UHGV virus genome: UHGV-0138535
DNA from: a virus
Direction: 5' to 3' (one strand)
Length of the DNA: 53,721 nucleotides
Below the pieces are notes generated by a model that saw nothing but the letters and a program-made list of their open reading frames with translations, did not search any database and was not told the origin of the DNA. Position 1 is the stretch's first letter. Every line of letters starts with the position of its first letter. Below, in pieces: positions 44,413 to 50,642 of this stretch. Both the position numbers and the translations under genes were made by a program.

Positions 44413-44589
44413 TTACGGCTTTCTATATATCAGGCCGTTATCAAGCAACATTTGCATATGCCGCCGATCCATGTCGCTTGATTCCCAATGTGGATCGTCA
44501 TCAGGTCTTATCATCACCTTATTACCTTTAAGTAAATAGACGATGTTAAATACCTTATGCAAATAGATACCATCTTCGATCTCGTTCAT
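44413..44589 (-). CDS. small hypothetical protein (58 aa)
   Basis: ATG overlapping upstream stop (ATGA); MNEIEDGIYLHKVF...; similar N-terminus to next ORF; not in track. Confidence 0.35.
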   Translation of the reverse strand: MNEIEDGIYLHKVFNIVYLLKGNKVMIRPDDDPHWESSDMDRRHMQMLLDNGLIYRKP

Positions 44590-44765
44590 AGGTCGCTAAC
44601 CCTCACCAGTTCACCAGCATCAAGAAATATTTTAATTGTTTCTCGCGTCGTCTTAATGATTGGCGCTACCCACTCACCACCGCCAACGCGGATGCGAATA
44701 TCATCACCTTCTACGCGGTAAAACAGCCCGTCTACTACTGTTGCGTACACCCCATCTTCAATCAT
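44586..44765 (-). CDS. small hypothetical protein (59 aa)
   Basis: ATG overlapping upstream stop (ATGA); MIEDGVYATVVDGLFYRVEGDD...; not in track. Confidence 0.35.
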   Translation of the reverse strand: MIEDGVYATVVDGLFYRVEGDDIRIRVGGGEWVAPIIKTTRETIKIFLDAGELVRVSDL

Positions 44766-44959
44766 TTCTTGCGCTCCTTAATAGCTCGATTGATCTGCCC
44801 TGCCGTAGCGTCGAAGAAAGCGATAAACACAGTCACAGGCCAAAAAGGAATCTCAAGGCCGCCAGGTTCAGCTCCGCTAAACTTAATAAAACAAGACATC
44901 AGGATAGCGCCAGCGATATAAAGCAAAACAATCACAGCTATAAGGCATTCAATCATCAT
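44762..44959 (-). CDS. small membrane protein (two predicted TM helices)
   Basis: Internal start MMIECLIAVIVLLYIAG of track ORF 44762..45049. Confidence 0.4.
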   Translation of the reverse strand: MMIECLIAVIVLLYIAGAILMSCFIKFSGAEPGGLEIPFWPVTVFIAFFDATAGQINRAIKERKK

Positions 44960-45200
44960 CGCCCTCGTCTTCATGTTCAGCCAGGAAATCATCAACGGCA
45001 CGGTAAGTAACTGGAGGGATGTATTCGAAATCATCAGAATCAAGATCAAGCGTCCTGCTGTCGCCGTCGTCGTCCATCGTATTCATCCCTAACTCACCGA
45101 AAGGGCCGTACCCAATGTGGCCCAGGTATTCGCAACCAATCGTAAACCCAGGGTATTCGCCTTTACACCGGATCTTGTAAGGTTTATTTGATGCGCTCAA
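44949..45200 (-). CDS. small highly acidic protein (possible DNA mimic)
   Basis: 83 aa; C-terminal half dominated by Asp/Glu (DDDGDSRTLDLDSDDFEY...AEHEDEGDDD). Confidence 0.45.
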   Translation of the reverse strand: MSASNKPYKIRCKGEYPGFTIGCEYLGHIGYGPFGELGMNTMDDDGDSRTLDLDSDDFEYIPPVTYRAVDDFLAEHEDEGDDD

Positions 45201-45507
45201 TTTCCCCCCCTCCGTTTTCGCCTTCAGTCACTTTGTATTCTGCCGCCAGTTCAGCGCCAAGCAATTCCACTTCCATATTAGCGATACCCTGGAACATCAG
45301 ATAGGCAAAAACTAGGCTTTTAATTCTATCCGGGTCTTCAAGATGGTCTGCATTAAAAGGCGGTTCCGATACGTGGAAGCATTTAACATGCGCATCGTCT
45401 TCAGTGGCTACACGGAAACATGCACTAGGTTGCCCGGCAAATTGTCCTAATCTTTCTTCGTTCGGTAAAGTGCCACGGAAAACTTTAACGCTGATAAATT
45501 TAGACAT
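45184..45507 (-). CDS. hypothetical protein
   Basis: 107-aa track ORF in accessory array. Confidence 0.45.
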   Translation of the reverse strand: MSKFISVKVFRGTLPNEERLGQFAGQPSACFRVATEDDAHVKCFHVSEPPFNADHLEDPDRIKSLVFAYLMFQGIANMEVELLGAELAAEYKVTEGENGGGEIERIK

Positions 45508-45510
45508 TGT

Positions 45511-45765
45511 CTATTCTCCTTCGTAAAAAATAGCTACCAGTTCAGGATTGTTTAATGGGTTAGGGCAAGAATAAAAACCACTTCGCAATAACCCCCTAAG
45601 CGCCTTTATTTTTCTGTGCACCGGGATTGACTCGCTTAAATAGAAATCATCTTTCCTTTTGTCATAAGGTAGCTCGTAAAACCTACCATAATTTACGAAT
45701 TGAACGACGCGGCAAAACTCACCGTCAGCCTTACTGTTGCCGCGCCATATTTTGATTATTTCCAT
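45511..45765 (-). CDS. hypothetical protein
   Basis: 84-aa track ORF. Confidence 0.45.
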   Translation of the reverse strand: MEIIKIWRGNSKADGEFCRVVQFVNYGRFYELPYDKRKDDFYLSESIPVHRKIKALRGLLRSGFYSCPNPLNNPELVAIFYEGE

Positions 45766-45768
45766 AAA

Positions 45769-46068
45769 TTAAAACTCCGCACCAGGTAAGCTACGCGCTT
45801 TGTTTACCGTATCGTGCTTTAACAATAAACCAGCGTGATAATTCATAATCCCCATATTACCTACTGGTATTTCATCATTTTCTGCCTTTATTATTAACAA
45901 CTGGTTTTTAGTGAAGATCCTGTCTCCATCAGTGATATATAACCAGTCGCCGCGCTTACCAACAACAACATGAGATCTGCCTAAGCTGTCTTTAAATTCA
46001 TAATTACAGAAAACATCATCGTTAGGAACTTCAACAAAACAGCAAGCAATAAATTTAGCGCTTTTCAT
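45769..46068 (-). CDS. hypothetical protein
   Basis: Start MKSAKF at 46068 with AAGGGTG RBS inside track ORF 45769..46098. Confidence 0.45.
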   Translation of the reverse strand: MKSAKFIACCFVEVPNDDVFCNYEFKDSLGRSHVVVGKRGDWLYITDGDRIFTKNQLLIIKAENDEIPVGNMGIMNYHAGLLLKHDTVNKARSLPGAEF

Positions 46069-46111
46069 GATTACACCCTTCTGATTTGATGGGGCCATCC
46101 GGTCCCGTGTT

Positions 46112-48794: not shown

Positions 48795-48804
48795 ATTTGC
48801 CCCG

Positions 48805-49035
48805 CTATGCAGTTGTGTAGCTGTCTACCAGCTTTTCATCCTTCATTCTGGCAAGCTGTGCGATGTTCATCGTGTAGCCGCCATCAGAGAAAAGCCACTC
48901 CGCAGCCTTGCGACGAAAAACAATATCATCATGGTTGTGCGTCCATGTAGCGATAACCACTCGCTTTCCGTCAGTGGCAAACATAGATAATTCATTATCA
49001 ACTACGTCGATAGCTTGCCAGATCTTTAACTCCAT
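48805..49035 (-). CDS. hypothetical protein
   Basis: 76-aa track ORF. Confidence 0.45.
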   Translation of the reverse strand: MELKIWQAIDVVDNELSMFATDGKRVVIATWTHNHDDIVFRRKAAEWLFSDGGYTMNIAQLARMKDEKLVDSYTTA

Positions 49036-49391
49036 TGTTTACCCCCGTAAATTTTGGATAGCTCCCGCGCTTCCTGATCTTCAAATATATTTATATGCAG
49101 GTTATGCAGGCGGCGCATTGTGCGGAAGCGTGGTCGGAATTCTTGACCCCTTTTAATGTATTTATCGCCAATTGAATAAATATGACCGTATGAATACCAT
49201 CTATTCCCGACCCAAATTAGATAAATTTCACCCTCATAATTAAATTTGATTGTAAACTTGTCAACCTCCATTATTAATCCTTTGTCGAGGATGTCATTTA
49301 GCATTTCATCCCATTCTTTCAGGAATGGTTGTTGATAAAAACCAAAAAGCGTATTTGCAGCATGGCAAAGATAATCAATGATTATTTGCAT
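49026..49391 (-). CDS. hypothetical protein
   Basis: 121-aa track ORF. Confidence 0.45.
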   Translation of the reverse strand: MQIIIDYLCHAANTLFGFYQQPFLKEWDEMLNDILDKGLIMEVDKFTIKFNYEGEIYLIWVGNRWYSYGHIYSIGDKYIKRGQEFRPRFRTMRRLHNLHINIFEDQEARELSKIYGGKQWS

Positions 49392-49395
49392 ATTA

Positions 49396-49596
49396 TCACC
49401 ACATCATATAGTAAACGTTATCATCTGCTAATTCGTCTGCGTCTCTTTGACAGTCGATTGTCGCATCATCTTCGTGCCATTCTTTAGCAAATAAACGCGC
49501 CCATTTACGACGCTCACGTTTATTGTGCTGCAGGTCACTAAAAACCATTAAAGCCTTGTCGTAAGCTCTTACCAGGCGTTTCATTCTACTTTTCAT
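49396..49596 (-). CDS. hypothetical basic protein
   Basis: 66-aa track ORF. Confidence 0.4.
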   Translation of the reverse strand: MKSRMKRLVRAYDKALMVFSDLQHNKRERRKWARLFAKEWHEDDATIDCQRDADELADDNVYYMMW

Positions 49597-49802
49597 TTTT
49601 CACCCTTCCTTAATTCCTTAATTTCAATATTGCGTAACCGGACGTTGCACGGCGTTTCAGATTTACCAGTAAGCGCCAGCGTCAGGTTTTCAGGTGTCGT
49701 GTAAAGAATTATCTCTTTACCAGTGCTAAATTTAATTTCTATGCGGATCTCGTTTTCATCACCGCACAATACGCGGCTAATTGACAGGCCAGCTTTTTTC
49801 AT
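49593..49802 (-). CDS. hypothetical protein
   Basis: 69-aa track ORF. Confidence 0.4.
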   Translation of the reverse strand: MKKAGLSISRVLCGDENEIRIEIKFSTGKEIILYTTPENLTLALTGKSETPCNVRLRNIEIKELRKGEK

Positions 49803-49830
49803 TGCTCAACAAACCTTAAAATCTGTATTG

Positions 49831-50115
49831 CTAGTAAATATCACACTTTATTGCGAATACCTTCACCGGATCAGGGCCGAATAGTGGATGTTGAATCAAC
49901 TTGATTTCGTACCCCATGTAAGGCAATACGATAATCCGGTCTTTCTCATCATCCGATGGATAACCCCATTTAATGATTAATCTTGTGTACTCCCGCCCCT
50001 CCAGGCGTTTACGCCAGTATTCATTGTAAAGCCGGTATTCCTCAACCTTCTTCCCCGCCCGGATAGCGTGGAAGTATTCTCCTTTTAAATTCAAATGCAG
50101 GTGTTTATTTGCCAT
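49831..50115 (-). CDS. ASCH/DUF3850-like small protein
   Basis: Start MANKHLHLNLKGEYFHAIRAGKKVEEYRL with AAGGGTGA RBS inside track ORF 49831..50148; pattern resembles DUF3850/ASCH N-termini. Confidence 0.45.
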   Translation of the reverse strand: MANKHLHLNLKGEYFHAIRAGKKVEEYRLYNEYWRKRLEGREYTRLIIKWGYPSDDEKDRIIVLPYMGYEIKLIQHPLFGPDPVKVFAIKCDIY

Positions 50116-50452
50116 CACTATCACCCTTAAAATATTGCTCAAGCGCACGTTTGACGTTCATTTCACGCTGATAATTATTATCTGCATAGATTGCTGCTGC
50201 CGATATGTGATCGATAATTTGCTGCAATAAATCAGGATGAATTTTTATTTTTTCGTCAAGAACAATGCGCTCCGGCTCTGGTGCTGTAGCACTATCTTCA
50301 ATAATTTCTATCTCACCATGACCACCGCATCGCGGACAAACAAACTTATCGCCTTGATACAAAAAGAAGCCGCAACCTTTTTCAGTCTTAACAACCATGC
50401 CGTCGTCGTCGCAGTTTTCGCAATATAACCACCCGATATTAATTATTTTCAT
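50105..50452 (-). CDS. zinc-ribbon protein
   Basis: Start MKIINIGW at 50452 with GGGAGG RBS (track start is TTG at 50488); CENC...CPRC Cys pairs. Confidence 0.45.
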   Translation of the reverse strand: MKIINIGWLYCENCDDDGMVVKTEKGCGFFLYQGDKFVCPRCGGHGEIEIIEDSATAPEPERIVLDEKIKIHPDLLQQIIDHISAAAIYADNNYQREMNVKRALEQYFKGDSDGK

Positions 50453-50642
50453 CTTCTCTATTCCTCCCGTAAATGTGAACTGGCTCAATAGGTACGGCTG
50501 GCAATTCGCCTTCGTTTAATGCGCTTGCCATACCCAATATCAATCGCGCTTCTGCACCAGTTACTTTCTTACACCACGCGCCGCCCGTTTTATCTTCGAA
50601 CAAGATAACGGCAAACTGATCGTTTATTTCTAACTTGTCCAT
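50439..50642 (-). CDS. hypothetical protein
   Basis: 67-aa track ORF immediately downstream of Q-like gene. Confidence 0.4.
   Translation of the reverse strand: MDKLEINDQFAVILFEDKTGGAWCKKVTGAEARLILGMASALNEGELPAVPIEPVHIYGRNREDENN

What the first reader, a model, noticed from the sequence alone, without database searches (positions are those of the whole stretch)
44413..50642. Six-kilobase array of about 28 small accessory genes between the Q-like gene and the late promoter, including a tandem paralog family
In lambda, Q is followed directly by PR', tR' and the lysis genes. Here the Q-like gene (50642..51364) is followed on the same strand by an unbroken run of small overlapping genes (46-121 aa), and only then by a PR'-like promoter and terminator hairpin (44326..44405) just before the holin. 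At least four consecutive genes (46640..47591) are clear paralogs sharing an F-x-(E/N)-G-x-x-Y block and a downstream (I/V)TDD or DNHD...LW block; 47833..48048 and the two 58/59-aa ORFs at 44413..44765 carry related N-termini. The array also holds an ASCH/DUF3850-like protein, a zinc-ribbon protein and a small two-TM membrane protein. Densely packed, diversified small paralogs in a phage accessory locus are characteristic of arms-race functions (anti-defence or exclusion). No product here resembles a known anti-CRISPR or anti-restriction family that I recognise.
Basis: partly seen in the sequence, partly recalled or inferred. Interest (0 to 1): 0.75.

Follow-up and report, generated by a model that had tools for sequence, protein, structure and literature searches.

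The report
Early accessory-gene array splitting Q from PR'
In this mEp021-type temperate coliphage, 25 real but uncharacterised small genes sit between the late-gene activator Q and the promoter Q acts on; four of them are predicted to share the rare fold of Gp54, a phage protein known to trigger a bacterial immune sensor, and the function of all 25 remains untested.

Summary
On the minus strand, 44413..50642 carries 25 tightly packed genes (46-121 aa, about 96% coding), not about 28. The window is an mEpimmI (mEp021-like) coliphage. Related genomes have the same array in the same order, with 8 to about 29 genes. All families have dN/dS of 0.06-0.36, so they are real genes.

Q belongs to the lambda-Q family. 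Its stop codon overlaps the first array gene, so no promoter fits directly after Q. The only lambda-style PR' signature (TAAAAT-N7-AACAAT, then a strong terminator) lies 6.2 kb away, just before the holin. The array is therefore most likely delayed-early, co-transcribed with Q.

Nothing matches known defence or anti-defence families. g03 and g04 homologues lie in "ea" accessory regions of lambdoid phages.

Verdict: a hypervariable early accessory region in an unusual position. A counter-defence role is plausible but unproven.

The parts
50642..51364 (-). Q antiterminator gene (240 aa), lambda-Q family
   Evidence: Pfam PF03589 E 1.7e-29. PHROG 127 E 4e-78. tblastn gives 33% identity over 99% of the length to lambda Q and P22 gp23. 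Its stop codon overlaps the g01 start.
50439..50642 (-). g01, 67 aa, acidic
   Evidence: phrog_35000 E 4e-40. Found in 9 of 11 compared loci, dN/dS 0.10.
50105..50452 (-). g02, 115 aa, two CxxCxGxG zinc-finger motifs
   Evidence: Weak DnaJ_CXXCXGXG hit, E 0.0017. Found in 4 loci, dN/dS 0.20.
49831..50115 (-). g03, 94 aa, ASCH-like
   Evidence: phrog_625 E 9e-37. Pfam ASCH below cut-off. Homologues are named ASCH or RNA-binding by PGAP and lie in ea regions of phage 21, Stx and P22-like phages.
49593..49802 (-). g04, 69 aa
   Evidence: phrog_1222 E 7e-29. Homologues occur in early-left regions of Stx and P22-like phages.
49396..49596 (-). g05, 66 aa
   Evidence: phrog_8758. Found in 10 loci, dN/dS 0.19.
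49026..49391 (-). g06, 121 aa (largest gene)
   Evidence: phrog_16975 E 4e-55. Found in 10 loci, dN/dS 0.13. No PDB sequence match.
48805..49035 (-). g07, 76 aa, conserved core
   Evidence: phrog_38280. Present in all loci, dN/dS 0.09.
48561..48794 (-). g08, 77 aa, conserved core
   Evidence: phrog_30442. Present in all loci, dN/dS 0.06.
48277..48564 (-). g09, 95 aa
   Evidence: phrog_33175. Found in 5 loci, dN/dS 0.11.
48053..48280 (-). g10, 75 aa, conserved core
   Evidence: phrog_5009. Found in 10 loci, dN/dS 0.08.
47833..48048 (-). g11, 71 aa, conserved core; homologue of mEp021_41
   Evidence: Present in all loci, dN/dS 0.07. mEp021_41 is annotated 'virion structural protein' from mass spectrometry (PMC11893012). 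Kinship with g24/g25 is not supported.
47591..47836 (-). g12, 81 aa, basic, conserved core
   Evidence: phrog_38609. Present in all loci, dN/dS 0.08.
47379..47591 (-). g13, 70 aa, Gp54-fold paralog family
   Evidence: Alignments A1 and A2. hhalign to g13b P 1e-9 and to g15 P 9e-5. phrog_31142.
47111..47368 (-). g14, 85 aa, most divergent member of the paralog family
   Evidence: Shares F-x-x-G-x-x-Y and the C-terminal A-x-F. hhalign to g15 gives only P 6e-4, so its membership is weaker.
46861..47100 (-). g15, 79 aa, paralog family; the member that was modelled
46640..46864 (-). g16, 74 aa (or 72 aa from the ATG at 46858), paralog family
   Evidence: Clusters with g13 through intermediates in relatives. 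hhalign to g13b P 2e-4. Alignments A1 and A2.
46580..46613 (-). Internal hairpin with a weak U-tract (terminator-like) in the only large gap
   Evidence: AAATGGCATTG-TTTCGG-CAGTGCCATTT then TGTTAT. Fold z-score -3.7. ARNold terminators T8, T7 and T10 are annotated in or near the corresponding interval of mEp010, mEp044 and mEp554, placed by gene order only.
46263..46541 (-). g17, 92 aa, acidic (net charge -11)
   Evidence: phrog_7287 E 1e-37. Found in 4 loci. Charge.
46112..46252 (-). g18, 46 aa, acidic
   Evidence: phrog_22232 E 1e-34. Found in 8 loci, dN/dS 0.09.
45769..46068 (-). g19, 99 aa
   Evidence: No PHROG or Pfam hit. Found in 9 loci, dN/dS 0.19.
45511..45765 (-). g20, 84 aa
   Evidence: phrog_32200. 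Found in 7 loci, dN/dS 0.11.
45184..45507 (-). g21, 107 aa
   Evidence: phrog_23107 E 8e-64. Found in 9 loci, dN/dS 0.36, the highest in the array.
44949..45200 (-). g22, 83 aa (TTG start), very acidic (pI 4.1, net charge -15)
   Evidence: phrog_25234 covers residues 1-83 of 83. PGAP calls the same ORF in MS 21-1. Charge.
44762..44959 (-). g23, 65 aa, small membrane protein (1-2 TM segments)
   Evidence: phrog_10061. Hydrophobic window with Kyte-Doolittle score 2.76.
44586..44765 (-). g24, 59 aa, second paralog family
44413..44589 (-). g25, 58 aa, second paralog family; last gene of the array
   Evidence: phrog_15318 E 3e-30. Present in all loci. The family has 252 clusters at 90% identity; every source name shown among the 120 listed hits is Escherichia or a phage MAG.
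44364..44405 (-). Putative late promoter PR': -35 TTGTAG (44405-44400), 17-nt spacer, -10 TAAAAT (44382-44377), ATTTCCT, then the -10-like pause element AACAAT (44369-44364)
   Evidence: Same layout as lambda PR' (TAAATT-TGACTC-AACGAT), Salmonella phage SI5 (TAATCT-CTATTCT-AACGAT) and PHB10 (TAATTT-TGCTCC-AACGAT). The motif is unique in the window. The block is conserved in all 13 loci from about 12 nt upstream of the -10.
44325..44349 (-). Intrinsic terminator (tR'-like), about 20 nt after the pause element
   Evidence: ACCCGGCCCCGCGCCGGGT followed by TTTTTG. Annotated as TERM_5 (score 100) in mEp021 and as T9, T8 or T10 in relatives.
44106..44306 (-). Holin, first late gene (context)
   Evidence: Pfam Phage_holin_2_3 E 1.9e-15.

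Best explanation
The region is the distal, hypervariable accessory part of the early-right operon of an mEpimmI (mEp021-like) temperate coliphage.

Expression (inferred). Transcription starts at the early promoter and is kept going by the phage's N-like antiterminator Gp17. It runs through ninG, rusA and Q and straight on into 25 translationally packed small genes. It passes one internal hairpin terminator and reaches the strong terminator just before the holin. The array is therefore made at the same delayed-early time as Q, before late genes.

Late promoter (inferred from sequence). Q's own target, a lambda-type PR' with a -10-like pause element followed by a terminator, lies immediately upstream of the holin. 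That is 6.2 kb from the Q gene instead of next to it. Q must therefore act in trans over that distance.

Products. They are small, mostly soluble, often acidic proteins with no enzymatic signatures. The most likely mode of action is stoichiometric binding to host proteins: host takeover or neutralisation of host immunity.

Paralog family. The best-characterised part is a four-gene family (g13-g16). It is predicted to adopt the rare six-stranded beta-barrel of Gp54 from phage Bas11, a protein that binds the sensor domain of the CapRelSJ46 defence protein by beta-sheet augmentation. By analogy, these paralogs would be protein-binding modules that have duplicated and diverged to engage different targets.

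What is shown: gene reality, synteny and variability, Q family membership, the sequence architecture of PR' and its terminator, the two paralog families, and the predicted fold match.

What is inferred: timing of expression, Q action at that promoter, and any counter-defence function.
For: - Group identity and synteny; PMC11893012.
- 25 genes with SD sequences and overlaps. All have dN/dS of 0.06-0.36.
- 20 of 25 fall in PHROGs of unknown function.
- Presence/absence variation runs from 8 to about 29 genes in fixed order.
- Q is lambda-Q family.
- In all 13 loci the Q stop overlaps the next gene's start.
- The PR' architecture matches lambda, SI5 and PHB10. It is unique in the window and conserved across loci. 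A terminator follows.
- In the M1/5 prophage, an extra 357-bp insertion lies upstream of the retained promoter block.
- Paralog family.
- Similar predicted folds occur in many small proteins of T1-like (Drexlerviridae) phages and relatives.
- Gp54 biology: PMC11578894.
- g03 and g04 homologues lie in ea-type early accessory regions of lambdoid phages.
- No match to defence-system models.
Against: - There is no transcript data, so early timing and the position of PR' rest on sequence analogy.
- The -35 hexamer is weak (TTGTAG), and 5 of 13 relatives have no recognisable -35.
- There is no sequence-level link to Gp54: PF25180 is not matched and hhalign gives P 0.39. The fold match rests on a predicted model of one paralog.
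- The native function of Gp54 is itself unknown.
- No gene-wide positive selection was detected.
- Six array genes are near-universal in the group, which fits a conserved phage function better than arms-race cargo. One of them (the g11 homologue) was detected in virions.
- None of the 25 products matches any known anti-defence family.
Confidence: 0.55

Rival explanations
1. The array is part of the late operon. A Q-dependent promoter lies at or inside the end of Q, and the genes are Q-dependent late 'morons', like stx and its neighbours in Stx phages. The terminator before the holin would then be just one more terminator read through by Q-modified polymerase.
For: In lambda, PHB10, SI5 and Stx phages, PR' lies directly after Q, and extra genes, where present, lie downstream of it. 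This arrangement is the norm.
Against: There is no intergenic space after Q in any of 13 loci, because the stop and start codons overlap. The -10/N7/AACNAT signature occurs only once in the window, next to the holin. That block is the most conserved non-coding sequence of the region.
Confidence: 0.12
2. The genes are lysogen-expressed morons that protect the host cell (superinfection exclusion or prophage-encoded defence) rather than helping the phage during infection.
For: g23 is a small membrane protein. mEpimmI phages are known to carry exclusion lipoproteins elsewhere in the genome (PMC11893012).
Against: None of the 25 proteins matches any PADLOC model. No gene has its own promoter-terminator pair, and promoter-like sites are at the chance level, 21 found against 22 expected. 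The genes are embedded in, and translationally coupled to, an operon expected to be repressed in lysogens. Most products are tiny soluble proteins.
Confidence: 0.1
3. The array, or at least its conserved core (g07, g08, g10, g11, g12, g25), carries ordinary phage functions. These could be small regulators, or replication, packaging or virion-associated factors, comparable to conserved nin-region genes. The variable genes would be neutral hitch-hikers.
For: The core genes are present in all or nearly all 13 loci with low dN/dS of 0.06-0.09. The g11 homologue was found in purified mEp021 virions by mass spectrometry, and a protein language-model search likened it to an RNA-binding translational repressor (PMC11893012).
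Against: No homology to any known nin, replication or structural family was found. mEp021 grows with only 8 of these genes, so the rest are dispensable. The variable genes are themselves under purifying selection.
Confidence: 0.2

Closest known systems
Lambdoid early accessory regions (lambda nin region; the 'ea' region of P22, phage 21 and Stx phages)
   Same: These are also dense runs of small, mostly dispensable, mosaic genes inside N-antiterminated early operons. g03 and g04 have direct homologues (50-60% identity) in the ea regions of phage 21, VT2-Sakai, ST104 and Sf11. ninG and rusA lie immediately upstream here.
   Different: This region lies downstream of Q rather than upstream (nin) or in the leftward operon (ea). 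Most of its families were detected only in Escherichia sequences. It is far larger than lambda's nin region relative to Q.
Lambda Q / PR' / 6S RNA / tR' late switch
   Same: Q is in the same Pfam family, with 33% identity to lambda Q. The promoter has a -10 hexamer, 6-7 nt, then a -10-like AAC(G/A)AT element, followed by an intrinsic terminator and then the lysis genes.
   Different: The promoter is 6.2 kb from the Q gene instead of about 50 nt. The leader is about 45 nt instead of 194 nt. The spacer sequence, where lambda Q binds, is unrelated. The -35 is weak or absent.
Stx-phage Q-to-lysis region (stx genes and neighbouring morons)
   Same: Several kilobases of accessory genes separate Q from the holin.
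   Different: From established knowledge of 933W and H-19B, those genes lie downstream of PR'-tR' and are Q-dependent late genes. Here the genes lie upstream of the PR'-like site.
Gp54 of phage Bas11 (Pfam PF25180, 'phage antiviral trigger protein'; PDB 9AXB)
   Different: There is no detectable sequence homology. The genes here come as four tandem paralogs in a temperate phage rather than the single characterised gene of a virulent T1-like phage (Gp54's neighbours were not compared). Whether they activate or inhibit anything is unknown.
Hypervariable 'accessory regions' or diversity hotspots of phage genomes enriched in counter-defence genes
   Same: The region shows presence/absence mosaicism between conserved flanks and consists of small ORFs of unknown function. 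The concept is covered in bioRxiv 10.1101/2024.10.15.618418, seen but not read in depth.
   Different: No member here has been tested, and none matches a known counter-defence family.

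Membership tests
Lambda-type Q antitermination module | Q protein belongs to the lambda-Q family (Pfam PF03589) | tested here: met
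   E 1.7e-29, 102 bits against a cut-off of 26.7. 33% identity over 99% of the length to lambda Q.
Lambda-type Q antitermination module | Promoter whose initially transcribed region carries a -10-like sigma70 pause element (AACGAT in lambda) 6-7 nt after the -10 hexamer | tested here: met
   TAAAAT-ATTTCCT-AACAAT at 44382-44364, compared with lambda, SI5 and PHB10. This is a sequence-level test only.
Lambda-type Q antitermination module | Intrinsic terminator downstream of the promoter and ahead of the late genes | tested here: met
   A hairpin of 7 bp (6 G-C) plus a T-run at 44349-44325. Annotated as a terminator in relatives.
Lambda-type Q antitermination module | PR'/qut lies directly downstream of the Q gene | tested here: not met
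   The Q stop overlaps the g01 start. The PR'-like site is 6.2 kb away in the window and at least 2.3 kb away in every relative.
Lambda-type Q antitermination module | Q binds the promoter DNA and converts paused RNA polymerase to a terminator-resistant form | not testable with these tools
   Needs in vitro transcription or in vivo reporter assays.
Pfam PF25180 Gp54 (phage antiviral trigger protein) | Sequence match to the family HMM above its cut-off | tested here: not met
   No PF25180 hit for g13-g16 or their relatives even at E up to 10, while Gp54 itself scores 116 bits. hhalign of the family against Gp54 homologues gives P 0.39.
Pfam PF25180 Gp54 (phage antiviral trigger protein) | Six-stranded small beta-barrel with a prominent beta1-beta2 loop | tested here: met
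Pfam PF25180 Gp54 (phage antiviral trigger protein) | Direct binding to and activation of CapRelSJ46 | not testable with these tools
   Requires co-expression toxicity or binding assays. Even close Gp54 homologues do not activate CapRel (PMC11578894).
Known anti-phage defence systems (PADLOC-DB) | Match of any product to a defence-system protein model | tested here: not met
   None of the 25 proteins matched any model at E up to 0.01.
Known protein families, including anti-restriction or anti-CRISPR families held in Pfam and NCBIfam | Match above the curated cut-off | tested here: not met
   No array protein passes a Pfam cut-off. NCBIfam gives only a weak DnaJ-motif hit for g02. No dedicated anti-defence library was available.
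ASCH domain (PF04266), for g03 | Match to the ASCH HMM above its cut-off | tested here: inconclusive
   17.1 bits against a cut-off of 21.2, N-terminal part only. There is a weak PDB hit to the archaeal protein PH0355, E 0.25. PGAP names homologues 'ASCH domain-containing' or 'RNA-binding protein'.
Lambdoid nin-region housekeeping functions (NinB/Orf, NinG/Rap, RusA, NinI phosphatase and others) | Homology of array products to these families | tested here: not met
   NinG and RusA are found upstream of Q, outside the array. No array product matches them.

The most novel reading that the evidence does not exclude
The four tandem Gp54-fold paralogs (g13-g16; up to five copies in relatives) could be a duplicating, diversifying family of immune-sensor-binding proteins. 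Each copy would neutralise or decoy a different host or prophage defence sensor, of the CapRel/toxSAS type or others, by beta-sheet augmentation through the conserved F-x-x-G loop. That would supply the missing native function of the Gp54 fold. It would also show that a temperate phage keeps a multi-copy counter-defence battery, fired together with Q, in a dedicated slot between Q and its promoter.
Probability: 0.2. Interest if true: 0.8.

Novelty: new variant of a known kind. Interest (0 to 1): 0.5.

Why it matters
Three points would matter if the reading is correct.

1. It describes an unusual wiring of the classic lambda late switch. The Q gene and its target promoter are separated by 2-7 kb of early cargo. 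Classical genetics (from memory) reports that lambda Q acts preferentially in cis, so this separation bears on that question. It also creates a defined insertion slot whose cargo is expressed before lysis.

2. It links a tandem paralog family, found so far mainly in E. coli sequences, to the rare fold of Gp54 from phage Bas11. Gp54 is one of the few phage proteins known to be sensed directly by a bacterial immune protein, and its own function is unknown. These paralogs therefore offer natural variants for testing what this fold does.

3. mEpimmI prophages are reported to be common in gut E. coli (PMC11893012). The array is a compact, testable pool of 25 candidate host-interaction genes.

If the array turns out to have no phenotype, it is simply another variable region of hypothetical genes in an already sequenced phage group.

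Tried and rejected
- **Beta-propeller kinship of the g13-g16 family.** The exhaustive HMMER search and the PDB profile search hit NHL, Reg_prop and BNR propellers and designed 'Cake' propellers. Each stretch scores only about 7 bits, on the short motif h-h-h-x-D-x-x-G-x-h-W, and the E-values come from summing repeats. I rejected this as motif-level resemblance.
- **A boxB/nut-like hairpin in the leader** (ACAAT-GCGAA-ATTGT). Four relatives carry an uncompensated A·C mismatch in the stem, so I rejected it.
- **Co-variation between Q alleles and the two -35-region variants.** The 240-aa and 242-aa alleles are about 86% identical. No column separates the promoter variants, so the upstream part of the promoter region is not a Q-specificity determinant.
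- **Rfam, tRNA and DNA-repeat scans of the region.** Nothing was found. The paralogs are too diverged to be seen at DNA level.
- **PADLOC, NCBIfam and Pfam for all 25 proteins.** Nothing passed a threshold.
- **PDB sequence searches for g03, g06, g11 and g21.** Nothing significant.
- **g11 as a third member of the g24/g25 family.** The N-termini look alike, but hhalign gives P 0.03-0.05, so this is left open.
- **A sequence bridge from the family to Gp54.** I tried the distant small homologue P0099 by tblastn against phages. Hits were only weak (E 0.01-1) and none was to Bas11-like phages.
- **Internal promoters.** sigma70-like sites occur at the chance level.

Full report
**What the window is.** The region around the finding matches seven sequenced phages of the mEp021 / 'mEpimmI' group at 84-88% identity (mEp010, mEp013, mEp021, mEp044, mEp515, mEp554, MagusPhagus). 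It also matches prophages in 35 of 5,426 complete E. coli genomes. The closest is E. coli MS 21-1, at 98.6% identity over the whole interval. This group was described in 2025 as Nus-dependent, non-lambdoid temperate siphoviruses with an N-like antiterminator (Gp17), three nut sites and a 'Q-lambda-like' protein. Its variable genes were said to lie mainly in the 'regulation cluster' (PMC11893012). The window is about one genome length and is circularly permuted. The early-right operon runs on the minus strand from about 8000 to 1 and continues from 53721 downwards through ninG, rusA, Q, the array, the lysis genes and the structural genes.

**Checking the observation.**
- Twenty-four start with ATG, and g22 starts with TTG. 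Nearly all starts are preceded by an SD-like purine run.
- Neighbouring genes overlap (ATGA or TGATG) or lie 3-13 nt apart. The exceptions are gaps of 98, 43 and 28 nt. About 96% of the 6,230 bases are coding.
- The genes are real. Twenty of 25 match PHROG families, all of unknown function. All are conserved in related genomes. Nei-Gojobori dN/dS against orthologues in up to 11 other loci is 0.06-0.36, compared with 0.02-0.05 for ninG, Q and the lysozyme.
- PGAP annotates 22 of the 25 in MS 21-1. The other three are annotated in other relatives.

**Variability.** I compared 12 related loci.
- Gene order is fixed but content is not. There are 8 genes between Q and the holin-proximal terminator in mEp021, 13-22 in other mEp phages and about 29 in the KKa019 prophage.
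- g07, g08, g11, g12 and a g25-type gene are in all 13 loci, and g10 is in 12 of 13. The rest come and go.
- Deletion junctions are often in-frame chimeras. One example is mEp013_60, which joins the g15 N-terminus to the g24 C-terminus. Database proteins show further fusions: g13b::g22, f33::g22, g13b::g25 and g13b::g16.

**Where the late promoter is.**
- The Q-like protein belongs to the lambda-Q family: PF03589 at E 1.7e-29, and 33% identity over 99% of its length to lambda Q and P22 gp23.
- In lambda, Salmonella phage SI5 and coliphage PHB10, the sequence just after Q reads -35/17 nt/-10, then 6-7 nt, then AACGAT. AACGAT is the -10-like element that, from established lambda biology, induces the sigma70-dependent pause needed for Q loading. 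In PHB10 a terminator follows only about 30 nt later.
- In the window, Q's stop overlaps g01's start, and the same is true in all 13 loci. There is therefore no room for such a promoter after Q.
- The same signature appears once in the window, seven bases after the stop of the last array gene. It reads TTGTAG-17-TAAAAT-ATTTCCT-AACAAT (44405-44364). It is followed by the hairpin ACCCGGCCCCGCGCCGGGT plus a T-run (44349-44325), then the holin SD and ATG at 44306.
- From about 12 nt upstream of the -10 to the holin start, this block is nearly invariant across the 13 loci.
- In the M1/5 prophage, an extra 357 bp is inserted upstream of an intact copy of the block.
- Weaknesses: the -35 is poor, and five relatives carry a different upstream segment without a recognisable -35. 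That segment does not co-vary with the two Q alleles. No transcript data exist.
- I rate the PR' assignment at about 0.75. It implies that the array is upstream of PR', is co-transcribed with Q and is therefore delayed-early. In Stx phages, by contrast, cargo lies downstream of PR' (established knowledge).
- The single large gap in the array (46541-46640) holds a stable hairpin with a weak U-tract. ARNold terminators are annotated in or near the corresponding interval of relatives. An antiterminated polymerase would be expected to read through it.

**The paralog families.**
- Pairwise BLAST among the 25 proteins is weak. The best pairs are g24-g25 at E 6e-4 and g13-g15 at E 2e-3.
- With relatives added, g13 and g16 fall into one single-linkage cluster through intermediate forms.
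- Profile-profile comparison gives g13-g13b P 1e-9, g13b-g15 P 2e-7, g13b-g16 P 2e-4 and g15-g14 P 6e-4. The median over 253 pairs is 0.3.
- The family has six subtypes. Four are in the window, and up to five occur in one genome.
- It comprises 74 clusters at 90% identity in a 5.8-billion-protein database. Every source name given is E. coli, an Escherichia phage or a phage MAG.
- A few distant small or tandem-domain relatives turn up in the exhaustive search.
- g14's membership is the least secure.
- g24 and g25 form a second family, with a third paralog in some relatives (P 1e-8 to 5e-10; both match phrog_15318). It has 252 clusters at 90% identity; among the 120 listed, every source name is Escherichia or a phage MAG.
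- The suggested relation of g11 and of g24/g25 to the first family is not supported. hhalign gives P of 0.03 or worse for the g11-g24/g25 link, and the predicted folds differ.

**Structure.**
- AlphaFold2 on the family alignment, with g15 as target, gives a six-stranded all-beta model (pLDDT 81.8, pTM 0.72).
- Foldseek against predicted viral structures finds the same fold (TM 0.6-0.73) in many uncharacterised small proteins, mostly of T1-like (Drexlerviridae) phages.
- At sequence level there is no link. PF25180 ('Gp54') is not matched and hhalign gives P 0.39. The only local alignment hhalign offers places the family's invariant F-x-x-G on Gp54 F21-K-K-G24, and G24D is the CapRel-escape mutation.
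- I therefore file g13-g16 as 'same predicted fold as Gp54', not as members of PF25180.
- The g24 model is very confident (pLDDT 95) but has no informative neighbour.

**Other products.**
- Nothing matches PADLOC defence models, NCBIfam, or Pfam above cut-off.
- g02 has two CxxCxGxG zinc-finger motifs.
- g03 is ASCH-like (sub-threshold). Together with g04 it has 50-60%-identical homologues in several hundred lambdoid, Stx and P22-like phages. Where annotated, these sit beside eaA/eaa genes near the record start, i.e. in the classical early accessory region.
- g23 is a small membrane protein.
- g17, g18 and g22 are strongly acidic, with g22 at net charge -15.
- The g11 homologue was detected in mEp021 virions.

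**Interpretation.** The best-supported reading is a hypervariable, delayed-early accessory region appended to the early-right operon between Q and its displaced PR'. It encodes small binding proteins, one family of which shares the fold of a known immune-sensor ligand.
- A counter-defence or host-takeover role is plausible but unproven. I put the whole package at 0.55.
- Rivals are: late Q-dependent morons (0.12), lysogen-expressed exclusion or defence genes (0.10), and ordinary phage functions for at least the conserved core (0.20).

**Novelty.** The sequences and the phage group are already public, and variable regions were noted for it. I did not find the following described in the papers I read:
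- the 2-7 kb separation of a lambda-family Q from its promoter by early cargo;
- the fold-level link of a tandem paralog family to Gp54 of Bas11.

I rate this a new variant of a known kind, with moderate interest (0.5).

Noticed in passing
window 51549..52445 (-): A single 298-aa ORF combines an HNH_3 endonuclease domain (aa 50-94, E 8e-21) with RusA (aa 173-278, E 6e-12). All 12 relatives have a plain 133-142-aa RusA at this position. It looks like an HNH homing-endonuclease-type insertion fused in frame to rusA.
   Followed up: partly
L009 1488..1784 (mEp013_60); database proteins P0005, P0016, P0037, P0066, P0068, P0070, P0071, P0184: Deletions inside the array often leave in-frame chimeric genes: g15::g24, g13b::g22, f33::g22, g13b::g25, g13b::g16, g15::g21, and a g23-g24 read-through. 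The junctions lie at short shared peptides such as GGG or D(N/D)DGD. This suggests microhomology-mediated deletion, with selection to keep translation continuous in a translationally coupled operon.
   Followed up: partly
window 46580..46613 (-): A stable hairpin (AAATGGCATTG-TTTCGG-CAGTGCCATTT) with a weak U-tract sits in the only large intergenic gap and splits the array into g01-g16 and g17-g25. ARNold terminators are annotated in or near the corresponding interval of mEp010, mEp044 and mEp554.
   Followed up: partly
window 44307..44380 (-): In the predicted leader RNA, the pause-element region (CUAACAA) can pair with UUGUUGG next to the holin Shine-Dalgarno sequence, enclosing the terminator hairpin (MFE -27.4 kcal/mol, z -4.3). 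This may affect holin translation from PR' transcripts.
   Followed up: no
window 44383..44412 and the same place in L004, L005, L006, L011, L012: There are two unrelated variants of the sequence upstream of the conserved -10 block: CCGTATTTGT(A/G)G... in 8 loci and CCATAATCGCGCATAAAAAA... in 5 loci. The second has no recognisable -35 hexamer. The variants do not track the two Q alleles (240 and 242 aa, about 86% identical).
   Followed up: partly
window 47833..48048 (-) and L002 2560..2808: The g11 homologue mEp021_41 is annotated as a virion structural protein from mass spectrometry of purified virions, although it lies in the early array. The mEpimmI paper reports a language-model similarity to the RB69 translational repressor and to YorC.
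   Followed up: no
L010 1208..1564 (E. coli M1/5 prophage): An extra 357 bp, with an unannotated 91-aa ORF, is inserted between the g25 homologue and the promoter block. This shows that cargo can also enter at the very end of the array without disturbing the PR'-like unit.
   Followed up: no
window 50642..51364 compared with L003 (MS 21-1): The array is 98.6% identical to the MS 21-1 prophage, but the Q proteins are different alleles (240 against 242 aa, 88% identity), and rusA also differs. A recombination boundary therefore lies at or just upstream of the Q/array junction.
   Followed up: partly
L015 12738..14368 (phage Bas11, genes 0050-0055): Gp54 of Bas11 itself lies in a run of small hypothetical genes next to a Dcm-like methyltransferase. 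This is the same kind of small-gene cluster as the array studied here.
   Followed up: no
window 51364..51561 (-): A conserved 60-65-aa ORF (phrog_18514) lies between rusA and Q in 12 of 13 loci and overlaps both neighbours. Its function is unknown, and its sequence looks helical or coiled-coil.
   Followed up: no
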